Origin: Spizellomyces punctatus DAOM BR117
Lineage: Eukaryota
Direction: 5' to 3' (one strand)
DNA: 64,000 bases
Assembly (NCBI GenBank): GCA_000182565.2
Contig: KQ257452.1
The notes under the pieces are model-generated. The model did no database searches and was not told where the DNA came from. It worked only from the letters and a program-made list of their open reading frames with translations. Shown here piece after piece: positions 8,155 to 64,000 of this stretch (position 1 is its first letter; every line of letters starts with the position of its first letter). The position numbers and the translations under genes are program-made.

Positions 8155-8254
8155 NNNNNNNNNNNNNNNNNNNNNNNNNNNNNNNNNNNNNNNNNNNNNN
8201 NNNNNNNNNNNNNNNNNNNNNNNNNNNNNNNNNNNNNNNNNNNNNNNNNNNNNN
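8155..8254. other. Assembly gap (100 N)
   Basis: N run that truncates the LTV1 3' end; the true gap is probably longer. Confidence 0.99.
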
Positions 8255-10409: not shown

Positions 10410-10632
10410 NNNNNNNNNNNNNNNNNNNNNNNNNNNNNNNNNNNNNNNNNNNNNNNNNNNNNNNNNNNNNNNNNNNNNNNNNNNNNNNNNNNNNNNNNNN
10501 NNNNNNNNNNNNNNNNNNNNNNNNNNNNNNNNNNNNNNNNNNNNNNNNNNNNNNNNNNNNNNNNNNNNNNNNNNNNNNNNNNNNNNNNNNNNNNNNNNNN
10601 NNNNNNNNNNNNNNNNNNNNNNNNNNNNNNNN
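10410..10632. other. Assembly gap (223 N)
   Basis: N run between the convergent SND2 and RNA15 3' ends. Confidence 0.99.
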
Positions 10633-19354: not shown

Positions 19355-21430
19355 TCAGATAACTTGCGTAATCCCGCTACTATTGACCATCTCCTCTTTG
19401 GTAATAAGATGTGTCGTCTTCACAATGCTGCAAATGGTATCGACGGTAAGTCATCGAATCGACGCAAAGCACCACGTCTGATCAAAAATACATACAGTTC
19501 AAGCAGCGAGTTAATGTTGGTGGACCACTCGTTAAGTACCGCATTGGGATCCTTTCGTTGTTGGAAGGAAACGATGCCTGCTGGTCGGTCGATTCTCGCC
19601 CAAATGGTCTTTTTAACAACCAGATTGGAAAGGAACTCCTCCGTTTCCTGTTTTGCGGCAGGTGAGTCTTCCGCAATGTAGCATACAAAACACGGCCAAG
19701 ACGCTATCTTACCGATGGGCTCAAGTCCAAGAGCTGAGTCAGGCGTTTCACCGTTATCCGATTGTAATATTTTGCAACAACCCGAATGTTCTAAATCGCC
19801 GCAAATGTCAAGATCAAGCTTCTATGAATCTGCGCACTGGAGAATTCAACTTACGTGCTCAATAACACGCTTATGCAACTCCTTGTACCGTTTTTGTCCG
19901 TCCTCGTTCTTGAGGTCGAATACGAAGCTCTCTCGCCACATGGTTCCATAGATTTCCTCCATTTTTGGCCATCGCATGAGCTCAATAATTATGAAGCACT
20001 TTGTGAACTCCCTACATCCAGTGTTAGTCAGCTGAACTCGTGGTTGTAGGCAGATAGACCCACATACTTGTAAAGTGGAATCTTGGCCAAGAAGGGATCC
20101 TCGTAAACACGGTGAATCAGATCCGACTGCTCGTTGTCATAGGGCGCTAGAGCGACGAAGAAAATGATATTTCTAAGGACCTGAAGTATTGTTATTGGGA
20201 AGCTCGAAGACATGTGGGGCATACAAGGACGCATTAACGACATTACCTCTGTTTTTCTTGCTTCATCCTCTTGCACGGAAGGGGTATCATAAATCTCACG
20301 GAAGTACTTGCAAACATCCAGGTATTGATTCTCATGCAGGGCATATTGAATCATCAACTCATAATAGCGCAATTTAAGATCCTACGCAGAAGTTTCGTTA
20401 GATCGAACTCCGTCAGATAGTGAAGGTTCAGAACTTATCTTACCTGGGTCTCTGTGGCTTTGAAGTATTTCGTGCTGATCTTGCGACTTATGATTTGAAC
20501 GCGAGGGAAGTCCTTCTTGGCTAAGCAGAGTCTCATTTGCTCCAGAATGAAGTCCGTCTTCTCACGCTTGTCCATAGAACCGAATGTTTCCACCTGACAC
20601 AAAAACAAGGATTTCAGTGACAAGTCAAAGATTGTATAACTTGACTGACACACCACTATACCTGGACATCCTGTAAAATATCGGCAGCTTCCACGATGTT
20701 ACCCTCATCTTCCTTTATTTTGGCCAGGGTTCGAGTCAAACGTGCACGCTCAACCTCCACAAAGATCTGCCGAAACAACCTGGTCAAAATCTGACACATG
20801 AAAGAACAACGTGGCCGTTATTCCATACCTTGCCCTCGGTCACCGTGCGCAATGTATTGATAAGTTCTAACTTCGTCGGCATATCAGGAGTTTGGTCGAT
20901 ATATGTCATGGCCTCTTGAATCATTTTGGTAACAGCCTGTTGTCCAAGTAAGTACGTCCCCGTATTCTTCTCATTCATGATATTGCAATCTCACCTGCTT
21001 CAATAGTCCATGCTTCTTTGAGAGTAGTATGATGTGTTCATTCAACAGCTTCCAGTCTCCCGAAAGTCGGCAAATTTGCATGGCAGCGATAAGCAATCTC
21101 GAGTTTGAAATCATGTCAGCAGCCTGGAAAGCAACATATCTCTTTAGCCGAGAGAATCGAAGGAAAACTGCGACTATCGCAGAAAGAAGAAGGCATACCA
21201 CACGTGTTTGCTTTTCCAGGGCTAGCAATTTTTCGAGCGCTTCGGTTATGTTTCCTTGCTGTAGGATCAATTAGTTTTCCTGAAACGACCAAAAGAAGTG
21301 CCGGTGTCCTCTCGCTCATAGCCTCCACTTCCCCAACCAAAACCAACGGTACCTTTGCCGTCTGCTCAATTTCCGGCAGCTGGACGTCCACAATCCCGGA
21401 ATAATCCTTTTGCATCTTCTCTTCTGACAT
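19355..21430 (-). CDS. RPN5: 26S proteasome lid subunit Rpn5/PSMD12
   Basis: [66 protein letters not shown]-like [10 protein letters not shown] (PCI domain). Confidence 0.96.
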
Positions 21431-30508: not shown

Positions 30509-31863
30509 CTACCACGTCATGGCTCTTCGGACGGGTAACCCCACTCCGCCAATTCCACCTGCATCCCTCCACAGCTCCACAACCCTGTTTCTTCTCTGTA
30601 CGTCTCCAGAGCGAACAGCATCCACGGCATACGCCATCACCTCCCTTTGAACACCCGCATCGGCTGCGTGAAGAATAATTGGTATCTCCCCTGCCGTCAC
30701 ACTTCGCACCTTTATGCCTGCCTCAAGACCAAACTTCACCTTTACACTATGTCGAACCGAAATTAGAGGCGAGACAAATGATATCACTGGCTGCTTGCTT
30801 TGTTGATTGGGTTTAACTCCCCGCAAGCTATCGAGGGGCACGTGCACCCGCTTTCTCCATAGATCACCACCATGTTGCGGCACGATACGGTGTACCAGGA
30901 TCGTCTCCGCAAGATCTTTGACCTGTCGCTGCGCTGAGACCTGAACGTGGGCCTGTAACGTCATTTCAACCCATTTTATTCTACAGCCTGGTGGAAGGGA
31001 GGCAACGTGGATATCGGCAATCATTGTCTCATCTAAGGCGTAGGAGCGGGACAACAGGGTGACCTGGTACGTTAAGGATGTGGAGGGAGTAGTGGTAAGG
31101 TTGGAGAGTGTGGCAGATGGTTGGCTTGGGATGGGATGCACACTAGGTAGACCGGATGTGCTGGCTCGACGGCCGACTTGCGGTGCGAGAATGTGGTGGA
31201 GGTTGTATTTTCTACATTCAATGTCGTGTAAAAAGTATCAGTGACGCGCGTATTCGCGGCAAATCCCACAAGCATAACTTACGATAAAACCACGGGGATT
31301 CTGACAGAAACCTTTCTCCTCCTCCTTCGCCCCCATTCCAAGACGGCCAATATAGTATACCCAACTCCCCCATCTTCACATTTGAAACTCGGTGGTAAAA
31401 TATCAGGCACGGAAAATCGAAAAGGTAACTCGTGGTCTCCACATTTCAGTGCCCCACTGTCCCCCAGGCATCCGACAACACTGTACGAAGGTAGTTCACT
31501 ACCCAATAGCACGATCTGTTGATGCACTAATACCCGCTTCTCCCGNNNNNNNNNNNNNNNNNNNNNNNNNNNNNNNNNNNNNNNNNNNNNNNNNNNNNNN
31601 NNNNNNNNNNNNNNNNNNNNNNNNNNNNNNNNNNNNNNNNNNNNNCATTTGGTCATGGGCACATGCCATGGGAGGATATGAGACCATTGTGTACGGGTTG
31701 CACCGTGGAGTGTGAGCGTTAGACGCGGAGAGTAGAGATGCTTTTGTGGGAGTATAGATAGGTGAACGGTGCCACGAATAGCGCAAGGGGTTATGCCTAA
31801 ACGGCCATGAATGAGGCTATCGTGTCCAGGAAGAGGATGAATGCTGATAGACAAAGGGGCCAT
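30509..31863 (-). CDS. Arrestin-domain (alpha-arrestin-like) protein, interrupted by N gap
   Basis: IRGTVHL...LTLTLHG, GDHELPFRFSVPDILPPSF, VGYTILAVL, SPLISVRHSVKVKF. Confidence 0.7.
31546..31645. other. Assembly gap (100 N)
   Basis: N run inside the arrestin-like ORF. Confidence 0.99.
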
Positions 31864-32895: not shown

Positions 32896-34304
32896 TCACC
32901 TCGACAATAAAAAGGAGATAACTTCTTGCTGATGTAACATTACCGCCATATCCAATGGCAAGATTGTTTCCAAGGGGGGGGCTGCCTGTCCAGTAGACTT
33001 TCTCCTACTCAGCCGCCGCTGAGCTGGCAGGGGTGATGACGGTAGTGGTGCCGAAGATGACAAGGCAGTGGATGGTAATTCCAGCCCACTCGGGGTCGAT
33101 TTCGGCTGAGCATTTCGAAGGCGGACGAGAAGTCTGTAATCGGCAATGTTGAGTCCCTTTCGGGGATTCGCGCCATATTCGAGCAGCATGCGAACCATCG
33201 AAACCTGACCCCTGCAGCAGGCAATGTGGAGGGCCGTCAAACCGTACCAGGACTGGTTCACTTTGACGCGATGATTCTGCGGCGGATCGTTCAGCAAAGA
33301 GAATTCCCAAAAAAAAAATGCGGCAAGCGTCCCACCTGAATCATTCTAAACACCATAGTATGCAGTCCCAAACCCAATGCCAGCATAAAATATGACGGTG
33401 CATGAAAACTCTTACACCGCGCCGAAAACACGGGTGCATTCACGTCTGGAGGGTACCCCTTATCCAGCATGAGCATACAAACAGGTTCCATGCCATTCAC
33501 CATGGCTAGTAGGAAAATTTTTTCTGTCTCTGCTGCCCAGGTTTTGTGGAGCATGTTGGGGGAGATTTCGTCGAGGAGGGAGCAGGCTTGGGACATGCGA
33601 TGATCGTGTACAGCAATGTTAAGGAGGTGAAATGTGGCTGTTTTCAGGTATAAATAAGAGTGAGTGGCAGCAGCTATAGATAAGTGGAATCAGAGCTGAT
33701 TCATACTATGCTGAGATCGTTTCCGTTTTTTAGGTTTTAAGAGCTTTGACAGGACACCCTTTTTAGGGTCTGATCGATCTAAGAAAAAGGACAGCACAGT
33801 CAAAATCTTGCAATGAATGAACAACCACAAACAGCAAACAACAAGTTCCAAACCTTTTTTATGCTTCTCCCACAAATTCCCTTTTGACTTTGTGCCTTTT
33901 TCTAACATTGGCGTCGGAGCCCTTTGTCGCTTCTCCAACGCCATCAAAATACGTCTCTGGTGCTTAGCGCGCACATCCCCTTGCCGAAAATCTGCCAGAG
34001 ACACGACCTCGTTTGCCGACTTTGTCGGAGACCGTGACCTGCTCATACTCCCCCACGTTGACGGTCCACTTGCACTCCTCTTGAGCTGGTACAATTGTGA
34101 CCCATTCGGTATGATAAGTGAGGATGGACGTAATTTGGGCGACTCCGCCTTGGACGCTGGCAAACTCTTTGGTGACGTTGGTGCCGACTGGTTGATTGGC
34201 AGCGGGGGAGGAGGAGAGGACATGGACCGGAGGCGTTGAGCGAATCCCTTTTTGAGTTGCTTTCGTAGCGCCAGCTTCCCGCCATTGTCCGAGTTTGCGG
34301 CCAT
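32896..34304 (-). CDS. Ankyrin-repeat protein (3' end uncertain; may splice to further exons near 32770-32830)
   Basis: GLTALHIACCRGQVSMVRMLLEYGANP and LPLDMAVMLHQQEVISFLL ankyrin-like repeats; Ser/Pro-rich N-terminus. Confidence 0.7.
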
Positions 34305-34547
34305 GCTGCTGGAAAACTACTGCAAAGTCGGCCCTTTGAAATGGGGGATGCCCAACACCCACGGATTTTGCGTTGCCTGCTGTGCGTGCGCTGCCCTTGT
34401 AGACGATTCCAACTGACTTGAAAGAATAGAATCCGTAAAAACCCTCACCCTCATAACACCCCATTTTTGCTTACGTCATTATCGCGCACACGTGATCTAT
34501 GCCACAAGTTCTTGCCAAGTTGCCAAGTCTTTGCTTGTTGTTGGACG

Positions 34548-36410
34548 ATGGAAGGCAAGATCTCGTCGTTGCCAAATGAATTGCAGTACAGGATCCTTTC
34601 CTTCCTCTCCCTCTCTAGCCAAGAGCAGCCGAAAGCGTGTCCTTTTGTTGTGCCATCTTCAGGCTCCATAAAGATCCCTGATCTACCTGTACACGTCAAC
34701 GTCCAAGATGCCCTCAAGAGCCTAGCCAAACATGGTTTCTACCTTGTCGATAATGTGTTTGAGCCAGCCCTAGCAGAGAATGTCCTTCAGAGTCTCGTGA
34801 AGCTTGAAGCCAAGGGAGAGTTGCGAGAAGCCGGCATGGGCACGGGTATAACACGGTAAGCTACGGTAGTTTTATCTCTTTGCTATTGCGGCAACGTTTT
34901 TCTGACTCGCGGGCGTTTGATTAGACACCACGACGCTTCTAATCGCGGAGACAAGACTCGATATTTTTTGAATAGCGAGCTTACTGGCGGTGTGGACAGT
35001 ACTACGGTGCTCCCGGCACTTCAAACCCTCAAAGCCCATCTTGACTCGCTGACTGCACACATCAATTCCCGCCTATTCCCCGCCCCATCCGACAACCATC
35101 AACTATGTCCAAAAGGGCTCCAGGTGGCGTATTATACATCAAATGGGGCACGCTACGTCAAGCACCGCGATGCATCTCCGTTGAATCCGTACCGCAGATT
35201 GACGATCTTGACATACTGGAACAAAGATTGGACGTCGGACCATGGCGGGTGTTTACGCATCTACCTATCTGATGGAACGACAGTAGATGTAGAGCCACGA
35301 TGGAATCGTATGCTTATTTTCAGAAGCGAATTGGAACATGAGGTTTTGCCGTCCTTTGGGGACCGGTTTGCCATTACCATGTGGCTGTATTCTGAGAAAG
35401 ATATTACGGCGTTGCTCTCGAAACTTTTTTTCAATGGGCCTCCATCACCCCTATTACTAGCAGATCCCAGCAAAGACTCTACCATCTTTATATCCATTCC
35501 CTCTTACCGTGATTCCGAGACACACTCTACCGTCACCTCTCTCCTCCAAACTGCGGCCTACCCACACCGCCTCCATATCACCATCCTGTACCAAGATCAC
35601 CCAATCCAAGACAAAAACCTCCACCCTCCCCTCCCCTCCCATCCTACCATCATCACCCTTTGCATTCCAAGCAAGCAAGCCAAAGGACCGGCCTACGCCC
35701 GCGCACTCATTGCCAAAACATTTGAAAACCAAGACTACATACTCCAAATCGATAGTCACATGCGGTTTGGCGAGGGATGGGACACGTACTTGATTCAATT
35801 ACTTGAAGGTGTACGTAAGGGGCAAGGTCAACATCTTATTACAATGTACCCACCCAACTATGATCCCCTTACGGGAGCAAAGGATCCAGAACCATTTGGA
35901 CCTGTTATGATGTACCCAACGGGATTTGACCAGGATGGCATGTTGAGAATCAGTGGAAGGATGGTACCGCCTACAAATGAATTAGTTCCACAACGACTTG
36001 TTGCGTCGGGATTCTTGTTTGCGCCTGGGACACTTTACGTATCCTGTCCGCCGGATCCAAACTATCCGTATCTGTTCTTTGGCGAGGAAATTGTTCTCAG
36101 TGCCCGGTTATGGACTCGTGGATGGGATTTTTGGACGCCTGGGGATGGAAAGAGGGGTATCGTGTGGCATGCGTGGAAGAGAGGTTATCGGAAGACGTTT
36201 TGGGAGAATGGGAATGTAAGGGGTCGAGAGGAGGCTCAAAAGAGGGTACGAGTGCTCTTGGGAATGGAGGAGGCGGACATGGAGTTTGATCAGGAGATGG
36301 GATTAGGTCGTGTTAGAGGGTTGAAGGAGTTTGAGGCGTTTGTGGGAGTTTGCTTCAAGGAGCGGACCGTTGAGCCCTTTAGCTTTTCCAACTGTCTAAT
36401 TGCTGAATAA
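34548..36410 (+). CDS. Fusion: partial F-box-like motif + PHD/PhyA-type 2OG-Fe(II) prolyl 4-hydroxylase + Gnt1-type (GT60) hydroxyproline GlcNAc transferase
   Basis: One intron, 34856-34924. N-terminal ISSLPNELQYRILSFL; hydroxylase motifs RGDK, YVKHRD (HxD), RRLTILTYWN, GGCLR, HEVLP, RFAITMW; transferase motifs TIFISIPSYRD, AKGPAYAR, LQIDSHMRF, LFFGEEI, ARLWTRGWDF. Confidence 0.85.
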
Positions 36411-38240: not shown

Positions 38241-39406
38241 ATGCCATCTGCTACGACAAGCCCCGAGTCTGTGATTGTCCACCCCCTCGTCCTCCTGTCC
38301 GTTGTAGACCATTACAACCGAACAGCGCGTAATACCAAGAAGCGCGTGGTGGGGGTTTTGTTGGGACAAAATGTTGGGAGTAAAGTAAATGTGGCGAATA
38401 GTTATGCTGGTATGTTTGAGTTTTGTGAAATAAGGGTTCCTGTGTTGTATTCATTGGTGTCTAGTTCCGTTTGAGGAGGACGATAAAGACCCTTCGATTT
38501 GGTTTTTGGACCATAATTACCATGAAGCCATGTACGACATGTTCAAAAAAGTCAATGGTAAAAGATGCGATTCCGATAACATACCTGCGGGGAGACGTTG
38601 TTCCCAAAACCATACTGATTGTTTTCTAAACTTTCACACACACATAGCAAAGGAAAAGATTGTAGGATGGTATCACAGCGGTCCCAAACTCCGCGCATCA
38701 GATTTGGAGATCAATGAGCTTTTCAAGCGGTATATTCCAAACCCTGTGCTTGTCATTATTGACGTTAAGCCCAAGGATTTGGGAATACCTACCGATGCAT
38801 ATTATGCCGTAGAAGAGATTCACGATGTAAGTAGAGTAACAAAAGTACGAGTACCTAGAACATTGCTCTTTAACTTGTTGGGGATTTCAGGATGGAACCG
38901 CCACAACAAAAACATTCAATCACATCCCCTCCCAAATCGAAGCTGAAGAAGCCGAAGAAATTGGCGTAGAGCATCTCCTTCGTGATATCAAGGACACATC
39001 GGTCGGCACGCTTTCCACTCAAATCACCAATCAACTTAATTCCCTGAAAGGCCTGCAAAACCATTTATCGGATATTCAAAATTATTTGACAAAAGTCCTA
39101 TCGGGGTCGTTACCCGTCAATCATCAAATTGTCTATAACCTCCAGGATATCTTTAACCTCCTCCCCAACCTCCAGGTTCAAGAAACCGTCAAATCCTTTG
39201 CAGTCAAGACCAATGATGAATTGTTGGTCATGTATCTGTCGAGTTTGATTCGGGCAGTGATTGCTTTGCATGGGTTGATTGAAAATAAGTTGATGTTGAG
39301 GGATGCGGAGCGGAAGGAGGAGGGTGGGGGTGAGCCAGAAAAGAAGGATGTGGTGGAGAAAAAGGAGGGGGATAAGACAGAGGAAAAGACAGAAGAAAAG
39401 AAATAG
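38241..39406 (+). CDS. RPN8: 26S proteasome lid subunit Rpn8/PSMD7
   Basis: [17 protein letters not shown]...[49 protein letters not shown]. Confidence 0.97.
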
Positions 39407-47343: not shown

Positions 47344-47719
47344 GTAGGAATTACATTCAATTATAGAAATAATCTCTCTTTTATCACTCTATTCATATTG
47401 CAATTCTCTCTCTCTCTCTCTTCTCTCTCTCTTTTGTATGTATGTGTATGTGTGTGTGTGTGAAGTGTAGAGTATAAGTAATTCCCTTTGATTGTCAATT
47501 CCATTCTTGGTGTTTGAAAGGGGGATTCACACACGCGCGCTCTTGTTCTTGTTGTTGTTGCTTTCACACTTTTACTGCGCATTCTATCACACTCTTTACA
47601 CACTCTATACTCACTACGCATGGGTATTTGAATAGGAAACAAACGATTAACGGGTTTATCTTATTATCCACATATACACACACACTTGAAAGAAGGGAAG
47701 GGGACACTCGCTACTCTCA

Positions 47720-47759
<40 letters not shown>
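47312..47759. repeat. Microsatellite cluster (TG)n, (AG)n, (CT)n, (AC)n in the PMT4/homeobox divergent promoter
   Basis: (TG)(AG) run at ~47312-47344, CT run at ~47406-47431, TG run at ~47437-47462, (AC)n at ~47724-47759. Confidence 0.9.
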
Positions 47760-47761
<2 letters not shown>

Positions 47762-47774
47762 CTGCGGACACGTC

Positions 47775-48995
47775 ATGACGGGGAATCAACGGGAGAGGTG
47801 TCTCTCACCGTCACAACCTTCCACTCCCACTACTACTAGTACTAGTACTACTACTACAATGTCACTATCCGTTACTTTGTCTGCTCCTTCTCTCTCCTCT
47901 CCACCACCACAACGACGACTACAAGATTCCCACGACAACTCGCCTCAAGACTCGTCGTCTTCGTCTTCTGCGCTGGCCTTTCCCACAACCGCACAAGCAT
48001 TTGCTCAGGCTCAACTCGCTCACCTCCAGGCTCAACTCCAGGCTCAGATACACCACCAGATTCAGCAACACATTGCCCAAGGCATGCCGCCCATGCCTCC
48101 TCACTTGGTTCAGTACCACATTCAGCAACAACTCCAGCAGCAGCTCGCTCACTTTCAACAAGGACAACAAGGGCAAGGACAAGAGCAGCAACAGCAACAA
48201 CACGCCAGGCCCACTCCCACACCGTTCATGGAACCTTGGACTCCGCTACCCGGTCCCACAAGCACCTTTCACCAGTATCGCCCTCCCGTCGACCCGAGTG
48301 CATCCATGACTGTAACGACAACAACAACAACAACAACAACAACAAAAAGTCCATCGTCAATCACCTCAAACGACTCTCACGCGGCCGCTCCTCTGCCCTT
48401 TGCCAGCGTCCAGTCCTTTCGCAACTTTTTCACTCCCTACGCCTCTACGGTCCTCCCCATGCACGGTCGCCCCCCAACCACGCTTCATCGCCCAGTCGTC
48501 CAGCTCACGTATACCCAAATGCCCCTCACAAAAGCCAAACGACGCCGTCCGACCCCCGGCCAAGTCAAAGTCTTGAATATGGTCTTTGACAAGACATTCT
48601 TTCCCAGCACAGAACTCCGACAAGCCCTTGCCCACGAACTCGAAATGTGTCCGCGTGCCATCCAAGTTTGGTTCCAAAACAAGCGGCAGGGCTGGCGGAC
48701 CAAGCATGGACATGCCGCCATGAAGCGTGAACCCGTCCCCCTTGAGCAAGTCCAAACGTGGTGTAAAAAGTATTATACAAAACGAAAAAATCAAGACGAC
48801 GAGGTCACACCCGATGATGAATTCACGTCTCGCCCTGTGGATACCTATCGATCTGGACCGTCGTCTACTACAATACCCTCTCGGTCGCCGTTGCCTGCGC
48901 CGCGTACACCTCCAACGCCTTTGGATGCACAGGGCGCTGCGGCTGCTGCCTTGGCCTTTGCGACAGGTCAGAGGGCTCAATCCACAATTGTCTGA
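47775..48995 (+). CDS. Homeodomain transcription factor (non-TALE, Yox1/Yhp1-like) with Gln-rich region
   Basis: KRRRPTPGQVKVLNMVFDKTFFPSTELRQALAHELEMCPRAIQVWFQNKRQ; poly-Q and poly-T tracts; start at 47775 or 47859. Confidence 0.85.
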   Translation: MTGNQRERCLSPSQPSTPTTTSTSTTTTMSLSVTLSAPSLSSPPPQRRLQDSHDNSPQDSSSSSSALAFPTTAQAFAQAQLAHLQAQLQAQIHHQIQQHIAQGMPPMPPHLVQYHIQQQLQQQLAHFQQGQQGQGQEQQQQQHARPTPTPFMEPWTPLPGPTSTFHQYRPPVDPSASMTVTTTTTTTTTTKSPSSITSNDSHAAAPLPFASVQSFRNFFTPYASTVLPMHGRPPTTLHRPVVQLTYTQMPLTKAKRRRPTPGQVKVLNMVFDKTFFPSTELRQALAHELEMCPRAIQVWFQNKRQGWRTKHGHAAMKREPVPLEQVQTWCKKYYTKRKNQDDEVTPDDEFTSRPVDTYRSGPSSTTIPSRSPLPAPRTPPTPLDAQGAAAAALAFATGQRAQSTIV

Positions 48996-58365: not shown

Positions 58366-58805
58366 ATGTCCAACTGTAATACTGAGGAGAACGGGAATGT
58401 TGTATCCACGGAGGAGAGCTCTGAGGTGCCGGTCCAGCCAGCAGCAATCGGTCAGCAAGAACAGCCCAGTGCTAGGCGAGGACGTCCTCCTCCCCTTCCT
58501 ATGTGGATCTCTTTCAGTGGTATTATCAGCATCGCGCTAATCCTTACCCAAGTGAGGCCAAGAAAGAAGAGTTATGCAACGAGACCGGATTAAACGCAAA
58601 ACAGCTTAATGATTGGTTCATTAATGGAATGGATGATGCCCTTCCCCTTGGCTTGCATTATTTCGATTATGGATTTAACCTCCATAACTTCATAGCGCGA
58701 CGACGGTACCACATCCCGCGCGCAGGGGCCTCACCGTACCACCTGGGTGGCCGGGTCACCCTAATCGAGAACTCAAGCACCAATGATCCTAGTAGAGATA
58801 CATAA
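58366..58805 (+). pseudogene. Probable pseudogene of a TALE-class homeobox gene
   Basis: LFQWYYQHRANPYPSEAKKEELCNETGLNAKQLNDWFIN-ARRR; relative to the paralog at 63693-64000 it shows a ~10-nt frameshifting deletion near 58509 and a GT>GA donor at 58627. Confidence 0.7.
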
Positions 58806-63399: not shown

Positions 63400-63692
63400 T
63401 ATGCTTCCTCTGTGGGCATCCCTTTATAGATGTCCATGATACATATTTACCCGGAACATATCATTTTGTTGAGAAGGTTTGGATCTCGGCAGAATATACC
63501 TGCATATGCGTTCGAGATCGGCTGCACCAAAGCGACCTCTTTCCTGTAGACTTTCAATTATATGCATTTTCTACCAGAAAAGTGTGCAGTTTCCAGCGCA
63601 CAAGTCAAAACTACAGAGTCATTGTAATACTGCAGTGAATGCCCTGCAAAGAGTACCACTTGGAACAATTATTGCAACTGCAGGCTAAGCTA

Positions 63693-64000
63693 CTATGAAG
63701 TGGCATCCATTGTGCCTTGTCTGGGAATGCGGTACCGTCGTCGCGCTATGAAGTTCATGGAGATTAGTTTTATGATCGATACAGTGCAAGCTAAGAGGAA
63801 GGGCAGCATCCATACCATTAATGAACCAATCATTAAGCTGTTTTGCGTTTAATTCGGTCTCGTTGCATAACTCTTCTTTCTCGGCCTCACTTGGGTAAGG
63901 GTTAGCGCGATGCTGATAATACCACTGAAATAGTATTTGGGTTTTCCACGGAGGATGGTTGGGACGTTTCGGTCGACCGCTCTCGCTGACCGACCGCTGT
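63693..64000 (-). CDS. TALE-class homeobox protein (5' part outside window)
   Basis: GRPKRPNHPPWKTQILFQWYYQHRANPYPSEAEKEELCNETELNAKQLNDWFIN[GT-AG intron 63746-63815]ARRRYRIPRQGTMDATS-stop. Confidence 0.85.

What the first reader, a model, noticed from the sequence alone, without database searches (positions are those of the whole stretch)
34548..34610. F-box-like N-terminus on the hydroxylase-glycosyltransferase fusion: an enzyme that may dock on its own substrate
Seen: the protein starts MEGKISSLPNELQYRILSFL, matching the first half of the F-box consensus (LxxLPxE..xxI.sfL). The usual second half (V[CS]KxW) is not evident. Established: F-boxes bind Skp1, and the modified proline lies in Skp1's F-box-binding C-terminal region. 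Inference: the motif tethers the enzyme to Skp1, competes with F-box proteins, or makes it an SCF subunit or substrate in a feedback loop. An F-box next to both Skp1-modifying domains independently supports Skp1 as the target; I do not recall this three-domain architecture being described.
Basis: partly seen in the sequence, partly recalled or inferred. Interest (0 to 1): 0.82.

Follow-up and report, generated by a model that had tools for sequence, protein, structure and literature searches.

The report
Conserved half-F-box helix on Skp1 hydroxylase-glycosyltransferase
A chytrid enzyme that hydroxylates and then glycosylates the ubiquitin-ligase adaptor Skp1 carries a short, conserved helix resembling the first third of an F-box on a floppy tether, which may be how it grips Skp1, though binding is untested.

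Summary
The gene (34548..36410, + strand, one 69-nt intron) encodes a 597-aa prolyl 4-hydroxylase (PhyA-like) fused to a GT60 GlcNAc-transferase (Gnt1-like). It starts MEGKISSLPNELQYRILSFL.

Residues 5-24 match only positions 1-20 of the Pfam F-box and F-box-like models. Scores are 14-16 bits, E 0.008-0.06, below the curated cut-offs. There is no second half: AlphaFold2 gives one helix (10-22), then a disordered, unconserved linker (21-44).

The motif is not chance.
- It is present in 10 of 10 named chytrid orthologues with complete N-termini.
- It is present in 18 further unnamed or non-chytrid relatives, one of them a stramenopile.
- In 8 of 8 permuted (Gnt1-then-PhyA) fusions it sits between the domains, again just upstream of the hydroxylase core.

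So it belongs to the hydroxylase module and is not an N-terminal signal.

It is not a member of the F-box family. A family profile finds no solved F-box protein, and the permuted versions show no F-box signal.

Best reading (about 0.45): a tethered helix that mimics F-box helix 1 and docks on Skp1's core F-box-binding surface, leaving the disordered Skp1 tail with the target proline free. Binding could not be tested because no Skp1 sequence was available. The two-enzyme fusion is already published. I found no description of the motif.

The parts
34548..34550 (+). Start codon of the PhyA-Gnt1 fusion gene
   Evidence: It is the first in-frame ATG after the stop at 34419-34421, with A at -3 and G at +4. 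Orthologue P0003 starts at the same Met.
34566..34607 (+). LP-helix / half-F-box motif, residues 7-20 (SLPNELQYRILSFL)
   Evidence: Pfam F-box and F-box-like match profile positions 1-20 only, E 0.008-0.06, below the cut-offs. AlphaFold2 on the 90%-identical P0003 gives a helix at 10-22 with pLDDT about 61. Matrix score is 36.0 against 12.2 for the next best site in the window. Conserved in orthologues.
34608..34694 (+). Flexible linker, residues 21-49
   Evidence: pLDDT is below 50 for residues 21-44 of the P0003 model. In 26 motif-bearing relatives the linker is 21-68 aa (median 27), rich in P, S and A, and 16% identical after alignment.
34695..34855 (+). Prolyl 4-hydroxylase (PhyA-like) domain, first part (exon 1, residues 50-102 plus two bases of codon 103)
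   Evidence: P0003 residues 54-258 align to DdPhyA(60-284), PDB 6t8m, E 1.4e-17. pLDDT is above 90 from about residue 50.
34856..34924 (+). Intron (69 nt, GTAAG...TTAG)
   Evidence: Read from the sequence. The joined reading ...GITR|HHDAS... equals the orthologue P0003.
34925..35402 (+). Prolyl 4-hydroxylase domain, second part (residues 103-262)
   Evidence: Pfam 2OG-FeII_Oxy_3, E 1.6e-18. H183, D185, H241 and R250 are invariant in 42 fusions. Foldseek best matches are prolyl hydroxylases, including 6t8m.
35403..35477 (+). Inter-domain linker (residues 263-287)
   Evidence: Helix 263-272, then residues 275-281 with pLDDT below 50.
35478..36410 (+). GT60 GlcNAc-transferase (Gnt1-like) domain, residues 288-597, and the stop codon
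   Evidence: Pfam PF11397 GlcNAc, E 9.6e-62. Several homologues are named '[Skp1-protein]-hydroxyproline N-acetylglucosaminyltransferase' by their source. D379, S380 and H381 are invariant or nearly so.

Best explanation
The N-terminal LP-helix (consensus L-P-x-x-[LIV]-[QK]-x-x-I-L-x-x-L in the chytrid clade, and [LM]-P-x-x-hydrophobic-x-x-x-[IL]-x-x-hydrophobic family-wide) is a tethered substrate-docking element of the Skp1 prolyl hydroxylase module.

Proposed mechanism, all steps inferred:
1. The helix mimics helix 1 of an F-box and binds the core hydrophobic F-box-binding surface of free Skp1 (helices 5-7, 'subsite-1').
2. It lacks F-box helices 2-3, so it does not organise Skp1's C-terminal region. 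Helix 8, which carries the target proline, stays disordered and can reach the hydroxylase active site across the 21-68-residue flexible linker.
3. The tail can then pass to the fused GlcNAc-transferase without Skp1 being released.
4. Occupying subsite-1 would restrict modification to Skp1 that is not bound to an F-box protein. It would also compete with the Skp1 homodimer.

Shown here:
- the motif exists and is conserved;
- it sits next to the hydroxylase core in both domain orders;
- it is an isolated helix followed by a disordered linker;
- its resemblance to an F-box is limited to helix 1.

Inferred: that it binds Skp1, and where.
For: 1. Conservation
- 10 of 10 named chytrid orthologues with complete N-termini carry the motif within their first 30 residues.
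- L8 and P9 are invariant in 15 and in 27 aligned N-termini.
- A matrix trained on those 10 scores 17 further hydroxylase-bearing proteins at 12 or more in the stretch upstream of the core, plus P0252.
- Only 1 of 139,531 background windows reaches 12, and that one is the internal motif of P0240.

2. The motif follows the hydroxylase
In 8 of 8 eukaryote-like Gnt1-then-PhyA permuted fusions, a [LM]Pxx[IVA]xxx[IL]xx[LM] helix lies between the domains. It lies 15-52 residues before the core in the 7 of them scored. Its proline is the only invariant residue of that inter-domain stretch. This rules out an N-terminal targeting or N-degron role.

3. Tethered-helix anatomy
Helix 10-22, then pLDDT below 50 for residues 21-44, then a confident domain from about residue 50. 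The linker is unconserved and rich in P, S and A.

4. F-box helix-1 likeness
- The only Pfam families hit by more than one of the 15 N-termini are F-box-like (6), F-box (6) and PRANC, a viral F-box-like domain (3).
- F-box-like is hit by 2 of 14 further N-termini and by 0 of 20 motif-less N-termini.
- The three nearest named Atlas clusters to residues 1-30 are all F-box families, at score 0.77-0.78, which is a lead only.

5. Context from papers (passages read)
- Skp1 peptides are poor PhyA substrates, and P143A Skp1 inhibits, so recognition determinants lie outside the active site (PMC7864055).
- Skp1 bound to F-box proteins, GAT1 or AgtA resists PHYa (PMC13278062).
- Subsite-1 (helices 5-7) suffices for F-box binding, and the hydroxyproline is at the start of helix 8 in the disordered tail (PMC12101541; 10.1101/764126).
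- Another Skp1 glycosyltransferase, GAT1, binds that same core surface (PMC13278062, Discussion read).

6. Precedent for very short F-box-like Skp1 binders
- Polerovirus P0 has a minimal LPxx(L/I) motif, and LP-to-AA abolishes SKP1 binding (PMC6593998).
Against: - No F-box model reaches its curated cut-off: best 16.4 bits against 20.5 and 24.3.
- Across all N-terminal motif pieces, only 8 of 29 hit an F-box family at E<=1. None of the 9 other pieces does (the 8 permuted inter-domain motifs and P0239's motif at residue 86).
- The Atlas gave no usable hit for the permuted version.
- Family profiles of 15 and of 27 N-termini found no solved F-box protein at E<=10. The hits were Prp16, PDE2A and CagY, taken as chance matches.
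- The position after the first hydrophobic residue is Q or K in 26 of 26 strong N-terminal motifs. The rows were selected by score, so this count is partly circular. It is not a feature I associate with F-boxes (recalled).
- In full-length scans only 1 of 42 fusions reported F-box-like, at E 0.14.
- A large clade of 58 fusions that includes the diatoms has no strong motif, so the element is dispensable in some lineages.
- Whether one F-box helix alone binds Skp1 is not established for cellular proteins.
- No Skp1 sequence was available, so nothing here tests binding.
Confidence: 0.45

Rival explanations
1. The LP-helix acts within the enzyme. It packs on the hydroxylase or transferase domain as a lid, an autoinhibitory element or a dimerisation helix, and does not touch Skp1.
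For: It is always placed a short linker away from the hydroxylase core, in both domain orders, which would also suit an element acting in cis. It is an amphipathic helix with hydrophobic residues at i, i+4 and i+8.
Against: AlphaFold2 does not place it confidently on the body: pLDDT is about 61 for the helix and below 50 for the linker, while the domains are above 90. The linker is long and unconserved, which is unusual for a fixed structural element. This reading does not explain the F-box-type hits.
Confidence: 0.15
2. The helix recruits a different partner, for example the next glycosyltransferase of the pathway, a chaperone or a localisation factor. Its likeness to F-box helix 1 is coincidental.
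For: The family-wide core ([LM]PxxhxxxIxxh) is generic. Profiles of it pick up unrelated proteins (Prp16, CagY) at the same weak level. UBM and DUF7120 each appear for 2 of 14 N-termini, at E about 0.1.
Against: Of all proteins in the genome, the motif sits on the one whose only known substrate is the F-box-binding protein Skp1. F-box families are the only recurrent Pfam hit in the chytrid set. No other partner is suggested by any result here.
Confidence: 0.15
3. It is a working, if degenerate, F-box. The enzyme enters an SCF complex as a substrate receptor, or is itself controlled by SCF in a feedback loop. These are the first reader's other options.
For: The element sits at the N-terminus, as in cellular F-box proteins. 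Another oxygen-dependent dioxygenase, JcdI/FBXO13, is a true F-box protein in the Skp1 interactome (PMC9485057 and PMC11570480, passages read).
Against: Only helix 1 is present, and the rest is disordered and unconserved. It scores below both Pfam cut-offs. In permuted fusions the motif is internal. Stable F-box binding would order the Skp1 tail, and F-box-bound Skp1 is reported to resist PHYa (PMC13278062), which would defeat catalysis.
Confidence: 0.08
4. It is a chance resemblance with no function.
For: The Pfam E-values (0.008-0.06) are of a size expected now and then when many proteins are inspected.
Against: The motif is conserved with invariant L and P across chytrid orders and beyond, while the adjoining linker is unalignable. 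It keeps its position when the domain order is permuted.
Confidence: 0.03

Closest known systems
Canonical F-box domain (Pfam PF00646 / PF12937)
   Same: Leu-Pro followed by an amphipathic helix with the same hydrophobic spacing. N-terminal position. The match covers profile positions 1-20.
   Different: About 14-20 residues instead of 40-50. Helices 2 and 3 and the conserved Trp region are missing. Scores are below the curated cut-offs. A family profile retrieves no solved F-box protein. A Q or K is conserved where I recall F-boxes being hydrophobic or variable (for the count; the comparison is recalled).
Minimal or truncated viral F-box-like motifs: polerovirus P0 LPxx(L/I), and poxvirus PRANC, including the 13-residue element of cowpox CP77
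   Same: Very short LP-led elements are reported to bind SKP1, and LP-to-AA abolishes P0 binding (PMC6593998; PMC3185573). PRANC is a weak Pfam hit for 3 of 15 N-termini.
   Different: The viral elements hijack the host SCF. Here the carrier is a cellular enzyme whose substrate is Skp1 itself. The P0 spacing rule (x10-13 then P) is not kept: by my count there are 15 residues in the window protein. PRANC hits are far below the cut-off.
Skp1 capture by the terminal Skp1 glycosyltransferases: Toxoplasma GAT1 (core hydrophobic interface) and Dictyostelium AgtA (WD40 domain)
   Same: These are enzymes of the same pathway that hold Skp1 outside the active site. GAT1 uses the surface also used by F-box proteins and by the Skp1 homodimer, so only free monomeric Skp1 is modified (PMC13278062).
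   Different: Those contacts come from folded catalytic or WD40 domains, not from a tethered F-box-like helix. No such element has been described for PhyA or Gnt1 in the papers I could search.
JcdI/FBXO13, a JmjD6-like dioxygenase with an F-box
   Same: An oxygen-dependent non-haem dioxygenase that carries an N-terminal F-box-like sequence and associates with Skp1 (PMC9485057; PMC11570480).
   Different: JcdI is described with a whole F-box and as an F-box protein in the Skp1 interactome. Skp1 is its partner, not its substrate.
PhyA-Gnt1 fusion proteins
   Same: This gene is one of them. [quoted passage not shown]
   Different: The passage I read does not mention an N-terminal motif.

Membership tests
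F-box domain (PF00646 / PF12937) | Score at or above the curated Pfam gathering cut-off | tested here: not met
   Best scores are 16.4 bits against 20.5 (F-box) and 16.4 against 24.3 (F-box-like). 8 of 29 N-terminal pieces reach E<=1, and none reaches the cut-off.
F-box domain (PF00646 / PF12937) | Three-helix domain of about 40-50 residues | tested here: not met
   Only profile positions 1-20 of 43 are matched. AlphaFold2 gives a single helix at 10-22, then pLDDT below 50 for residues 21-44. The region after the motif is unconserved.
F-box domain (PF00646 / PF12937) | Leu-Pro followed by the helix-1 hydrophobic pattern | tested here: met
   L8 and P9 are invariant, and L17 is conserved in at least 90% of 15 and of 27 N-termini.
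F-box domain (PF00646 / PF12937) | Conserved second half (helix 2-3 region with the Trp; consensus recalled from memory) | tested here: not met
   No conserved column lies after position 20 in alignments A1 and A4.
F-box domain (PF00646 / PF12937) | Binds Skp1 | not testable with these tools
145 of the 179 window ORFs of 100 aa or more were scanned, and none was Skp1.
Skp1 prolyl 4-hydroxylase (PhyA) | 2OG/Fe(II) oxygenase fold of the PHD type, with HxD...H and the 2OG-binding Arg | tested here: met
   Pfam 2OG-FeII_Oxy_3, E 1.6e-18. H183, D185, H241 and R250 are invariant in 42 fusions. Foldseek top hits are prolyl hydroxylases.
Skp1 prolyl 4-hydroxylase (PhyA) | Closer to characterised PhyA than to HIF-type PHDs | tested here: inconclusive
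   DdPhyA (6t8m) is the best PDB sequence hit, at E 1.4e-17, but human PHD2 follows at 3.3e-17. In Foldseek 6t8m ranks sixth.
Skp1 prolyl 4-hydroxylase (PhyA) | Hydroxylates the Skp1 proline | not testable with these tools
   Inferred from the fusion to a Gnt1-type domain, following the argument of PMC6437050.
Gnt1 (GT60 Skp1 hydroxyproline GlcNAc-transferase, PF11397) | PF11397 domain above the cut-off, with the conserved D-S-H metal motif | tested here: met
   E 9.6e-62, 209.9 bits against a cut-off of 21. D379 and H381 are invariant and S380 is conserved in at least 90%. Homologues are named as the Skp1 enzyme by JGI.
[quoted passage not shown] | LPxx(L/I), then a Pro 10-13 residues later | tested here: not met
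   LPNEL is present, but by my count the next Pro follows after 15 residues. The rule is taken from PMC6593998.

The most novel reading that the evidence does not exclude
The LP-helix is an ancient substrate-capture module of the Skp1 oxygen sensor. It is an F-box helix-1 mimic that seizes the core F-box-binding groove of free Skp1 and pries apart Skp1 homodimers. It holds Skp1 while its disordered tail is hydroxylated and then glycosylated by the two fused active sites. That would explain why only Skp1 free of F-box proteins is modified. It would also give the first structural account of how PhyA recognises its substrate. Three enzymes of one pathway (PhyA-Gnt1, GAT1, AgtA) would then have independently evolved ways to grip the same surface.
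Probability: 0.4. Interest if true: 0.75.

Novelty: new variant of a known kind. Interest (0 to 1): 0.6.

Why it matters
How the oxygen-sensing hydroxylase PhyA picks out Skp1 is open. According to the passages read (PMC7864055):
- no enzyme-substrate structure exists;
- Skp1 peptides are poor substrates;
- recognition determinants are said to lie outside the active site.

A conserved, tethered helix shaped like F-box helix 1, always placed next to the hydroxylase core, is a concrete and cheaply testable candidate for that determinant. The tests are an LP-to-AA mutant, deletion of residues 1-45, and peptide competition with an F-box protein.

If correct, the helix links substrate choice, exclusion of F-box-bound Skp1 and control of the Skp1 monomer pool to one short element. 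It would also extend the idea of minimal F-box mimicry from viral hijackers to a cellular enzyme acting on Skp1 itself.

If wrong, the motif remains a conserved, unexplained feature of a widespread enzyme family.

Tried and rejected
- Skp1 docking by complex prediction was not possible. The tool's reference option covers bacteria, archaea and phages only. I did not type a Skp1 sequence from memory, and I did not fish for one in the bacterial genome collection.
- The single complex job went on the cis-docking rival instead: P0003 residues 1-45 against residues 46-597. The verdict was 'no answer' (score 0.02, mark 0.34, controls not run, alignment not used). This counts neither for nor against.
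- A Pfam scan of 42 full-length fusions was too insensitive for a 14-residue motif: 1 of 42 reported F-box-like, at E 0.14.
- An HMMER model of the 17-column motif gave useless local scores. I replaced it with an ungapped scoring matrix.
- The search for homologous proteins on residues 1-40, longer proteins, E<=10, returned only P0003 out of 15 candidates. The first attempt was rejected for an out-of-range E-value.
- A search for unfused short PhyA proteins (region 1-285, 'shorter') gave 10 short hydroxylases, none with the motif. None is a named PhyA. I could not see the N-terminal 59 residues of DdPhyA, which were removed for the crystal, or the N-terminus of TgPhyA.
Their taxa stay unknown. 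I placed them by a tree instead.
- AlphaFold2 of the permuted fusion P0240 with 8 sequences gave a poor model (mean pLDDT 50.4). I use only the fact that it shows a helix at 354-363.
- Nuclear export signal: the window sequence can be read as one spacing class of export signal (pattern recalled). That spacing is not kept in orthologues such as P0004 and P0005. Rejected.
- BC-box / SOCS-box (Elongin C binding; consensus recalled): the position that should be Cys, Ser or Ala is Leu, Ile or Val in 23 of 26 motifs. Rejected.
Full report
WHAT IS THERE

Window 34548-36410 (+) holds a two-exon gene.
- Exon 1 is 34548-34855, ending at a GTAAG donor.
- The intron is 34856-34924, 69 nt.
- Exon 2 is 34925-36407, followed by the stop.

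The 597-aa product has two enzyme domains. One is a PHD-type 2OG/Fe(II) prolyl hydroxylase (Pfam 2OG-FeII_Oxy_3, E 1.6e-18). The other is a GT60 'GlcNAc' transferase (PF11397, E 9.6e-62).

The closest relative is a 597-aa protein of Spizellomyces sp. 'palustris' (P0003), 90% identical over exon 2. Its sequence runs straight across my splice junction. The window therefore comes from a Spizellomyces-like chytrid.

The best solved relative of the hydroxylase part is Dictyostelium PhyA(60-284), PDB 6t8m, at E 1.4e-17. Human PHD2 is close behind at 3.3e-17. Foldseek agrees on the fold. The catalytic H183, D185, H241 and R250, and the transferase D379 and H381, are invariant in 42 fusions.

THE OBSERVATION

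The protein does start MEGKISSLPNELQYRILSFL.

The ATG at 34548 is the credible start.
- It is the first ATG after an in-frame stop at 34419-34421.
- It has A at -3 and G at +4.
- The next Met is residue 97, inside the hydroxylase.
- Orthologues begin at the same place.
- A divergent minus-strand ORF starts only about 240 nt upstream.

Residues 5-24 hit Pfam F-box and F-box-like.
- As the 103-aa exon 1: E 0.032 and 0.06.
- As a 40-aa piece: E 0.0085 and 0.0076.
- Only the first 19-20 of 43-47 profile positions are matched.
- Scores are 13.6-16.4 bits, under the cut-offs of 20.5 and 24.3.

PRANC, the poxviral F-box-like domain, is a weaker third hit.

AlphaFold2 on P0003 with 42 aligned fusions (mean pLDDT 86) shows three parts:
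- a single helix at 10-22, pLDDT about 61;
- residues 21-44 with pLDDT below 50;
- a confident domain from about residue 50.

IS IT MORE THAN CHANCE?

Yes, because of conservation.

All 10 named chytrid orthologues with complete N-termini carry the motif within their first 30 residues. They are Spizellomyces, two Rhizophlyctis paralogues, two Nowakowskiella, Borealophlyctis, Chytriomyces, Phlyctochytrium, Blyttiomyces and Obelidium. Three further named models (Cladochytrium, Irineochytrium, Gonapodya) start at or inside the hydroxylase core and cannot be judged.

L8 and P9 are invariant in alignments of 15 and of 27 N-termini, and L17 is conserved in at least 90%.

I trained a 14-column scoring matrix on the 10 chytrid sequences. 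I then scored everything else the session held: 256 proteins, among them the best 150 of 18,849 hits from a profile search of 1.84 billion representatives.
- Past residue 100, only 1 of 139,531 background windows reached 12. The next best was 10.1.
- 17 non-training proteins scored 12-29 just upstream of their hydroxylase core. P0252 scored 25.6.
- These include Chrysoparadoxa australica, a stramenopile (16.3). Chlamydomonas eustigma has a weak version (6.2).

In the window itself the site scores 36.0 and the next best of 77,085 windows scores 12.2. P0003, with an identical motif, was in the training set, so this figure is not independent.

In 26 strong N-terminal motifs the columns read L 26/26, P 24/26, Q or K 26/26, I or L 26/26, and L or F 26/26. 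The following linker is 21-68 residues (median 27), rich in P, S and A, and 16% identical. The rows were chosen by score, so the motif counts are partly circular.

THE MOTIF BELONGS TO THE HYDROXYLASE, NOT TO THE N-TERMINUS

Ten session proteins have the reverse order, transferase first. Eight of them are eukaryote-like and full length. In 8 of 8, a helix of the form [LM]Pxx[IVA]xxx[IL]xx[LM] lies between the domains. It lies 15-52 residues before the core in the 7 of them scored. P0240 scores 17.5, above all other background. In their alignment the motif's Pro is the only invariant residue between the end of the transferase tail and the start of the hydroxylase.

This rules out an N-terminal targeting signal or N-degron. 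It points to a role tied to the hydroxylase.

On a FastTree tree of 117 fusions, built from the catalytic-domain columns only:
- 19 of the 26 strong motifs fall in one clade of 22 that holds all named chytrids;
- the rest are scattered among the Chlamydomonas eustigma group, the Chrysoparadoxa group, the permuted clade and two lone rows;
- a 58-row clade that includes the diatoms has none strong and 3 weak. Many of its members (for example the Skeletonema and Cyclotella proteins) start with a different motif that abuts the core;
- the label needs at least 11 changes, against a shuffled mean of 23.6 (0 of 500 shuffles as low).

The root is unknown, so I cannot tell one old origin with losses from several gains.

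IS IT AN F-BOX?

As a family member, no. Three defining features were tested and not met: the Pfam cut-off, the three-helix domain and the conserved second half.

The likeness to helix 1 is real but modest.

In favour:
- F-box-like (6), F-box (6) and PRANC (3) are the only Pfam families hit by more than one of the 15 N-termini at E<=1.
- F-box-like is hit by 2 of 14 further N-termini (E 0.17 and 0.18) and by 0 of 20 motif-less N-termini used as controls.
- The three nearest named Atlas clusters to residues 1-30 are all F-box families. The score of 0.77-0.78 is below the 0.9 at which the tool calls a hit more than a lead.

Against:
- Profiles of the 15 and of the 27 N-termini find no solved F-box protein at E<=10. 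The hits are Prp16, PDE2A and CagY.
- None of the 9 other pieces (the 8 permuted inter-domain motifs and P0239's motif at residue 86) hits an F-box family, and the Atlas gives nothing for P0240 343-372.
- Full-length scans report F-box-like for 1 of 42 fusions.
- UBM and DUF7120 each appear twice, at E about 0.1.
- The conserved Q or K is not something I associate with F-boxes (recalled).

The family-wide core is therefore an LP-capped amphipathic helix. The chytrid version happens to sit closest to F-box helix 1.

HOW IT MOST LIKELY WORKS

This is inference, at confidence about 0.45: a tethered helix that docks on Skp1.

The published context fits (passages read unless stated otherwise).
[quoted passage not shown] No PhyA-Skp1 structure exists, and the crystal used DdPhyA(60-284), without its first 59 residues (PMC7864055).
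- Helices 5-7 of Skp1 form the core F-box interface (subsite-1), which 'is sufficient for binding'. Helix 8 is the variable subsite-2. The hydroxyproline sits at the start of helix 8. In free Skp1 this C-terminal region is disordered (PMC12101541; 10.1101/764126).
- Skp1 bound to F-box proteins, GAT1 or AgtA resists PHYa (PMC13278062).
- GAT1, the last glycosyltransferase of the pathway, binds the same core hydrophobic surface. This limits it to free monomeric Skp1 (PMC13278062; abstract and Discussion read).

A helix-1 mimic without helices 2-3 would occupy subsite-1, leave the tail unfolded and let it reach the active site across the flexible linker. In a fusion, Skp1 could stay bound while the tail passes from hydroxylase to transferase.

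Very short F-box-like elements that bind SKP1 have precedent. One is the minimal LPxx(L/I) motif of polerovirus P0, where LP-to-AA abolishes binding (PMC6593998). Another is the 13-residue element of cowpox CP77 (PMC3185573).

None of this shows binding here.

RIVALS

- A helix acting in cis, or a dimerisation helix (0.15).
- Recruitment of some other partner, with a coincidental likeness to F-boxes (0.15).
- A working degenerate F-box that puts the enzyme into SCF or under SCF control (0.08). This is disfavoured. Only helix 1 exists, the motif can be internal, and stable F-box-type binding would order the very tail that must stay free.
- Chance (0.03).

WHAT I COULD NOT DO

- The names of the unnamed motif-bearing proteins could not be looked up.
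- The N-termini of DdPhyA and TgPhyA could not be inspected.
- Supplements that may show such N-termini were closed.

NOVELTY

The fusion is known. Short F-box mimics are known. Skp1 capture by pathway enzymes is known.

What is not in the papers I could search is an F-box-helix-1-like element on PhyA or PhyA-Gnt1. Those searches were made, for the PhyA structure paper. The library holds CC-licensed PMC papers and bioRxiv only.

I file it as a new variant of a known kind. Interest is 0.6: a narrow field, but the motif turns an open question, how the oxygen sensor chooses Skp1, into a one-mutation experiment.

Noticed in passing
session proteins P0044, P0045, P0047, P0049, P0054, P0056, P0142, P0145, P0100 and others: The diatom-containing clade of PhyA-Gnt1 fusions lacks the LP-helix. 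It starts instead with a different conserved N-terminal motif (G-W-T-P-K-T-x-H-L-L) that abuts the hydroxylase core at about residue 9. This may be an alternative recognition element.
   Followed up: partly
session proteins P0026, P0148, P0034, P0158: The clade with the oomycete Albugo has yet another N-terminal helix (L-S-P-Q-L-Q-A-L-V-E-A-x-L in P0026 and P0148). It has a similar look to the chytrid motif but a different register.
   Followed up: no
session proteins P0133-P0141: Very long proteins (1088-2461 aa) match the profile in 3-6 separate stretches (best-scoring stretch in the Gnt1-type part). They top the profile search. Their architecture is unexplained.
   Followed up: no
session protein P0016 and others with PF00535 plus PF11397: A protein named as from an alphaproteobacterial MAG combines a GT2 domain with the Gnt1-type domain (35% identity over 61% of exon 2). 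Bacterial relatives of the Skp1 GlcNAc-transferase therefore exist, or the assembly is contaminated.
   Followed up: no
window 58476-58802 (+) and 63688-63999 (-): Two oppositely oriented ORFs encode nearly the same TALE/KN homeodomain segment (Pfam Homeobox_KN, E 3.8e-16 each). A third, non-TALE homeodomain ORF lies at 47478-48992 (+). This may be an inverted duplication or a paired homeodomain locus.
   Followed up: partly
window 8155-8254, 10410-10632, 31546-31645: Three runs of N (100, 223 and 100 bases), which are assembly gaps. The third lies inside the arrestin-like gene region.
   Followed up: no
window 32899-34316 (-): The divergent upstream neighbour is a multi-exon gene with an ankyrin repeat (Pfam Ank, E 1.9e-10) and a Ser/Pro-rich first exon that has no family hit. 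It shares a promoter region of about 230 nt with the PhyA-Gnt1 gene.
   Followed up: no
window 38434-39403 (+) and 19423-20381 (-): Two proteasome-lid or PCI/MPN-type subunit genes lie in the same window as the Skp1-modifying enzyme: JAB/MPN with MitMem_reg, and PSMD12/RPN5-like. This is probably coincidence.
   Followed up: no
PDB chain 5lj5_Q residues 613-631: Yeast Prp16 contains a stretch very like the chytrid motif, and it is the best PDB hit of both motif profiles (E 0.11 and 0.68). I took it as a chance match. It shows that the pattern is not exclusive to F-boxes.
   Followed up: no
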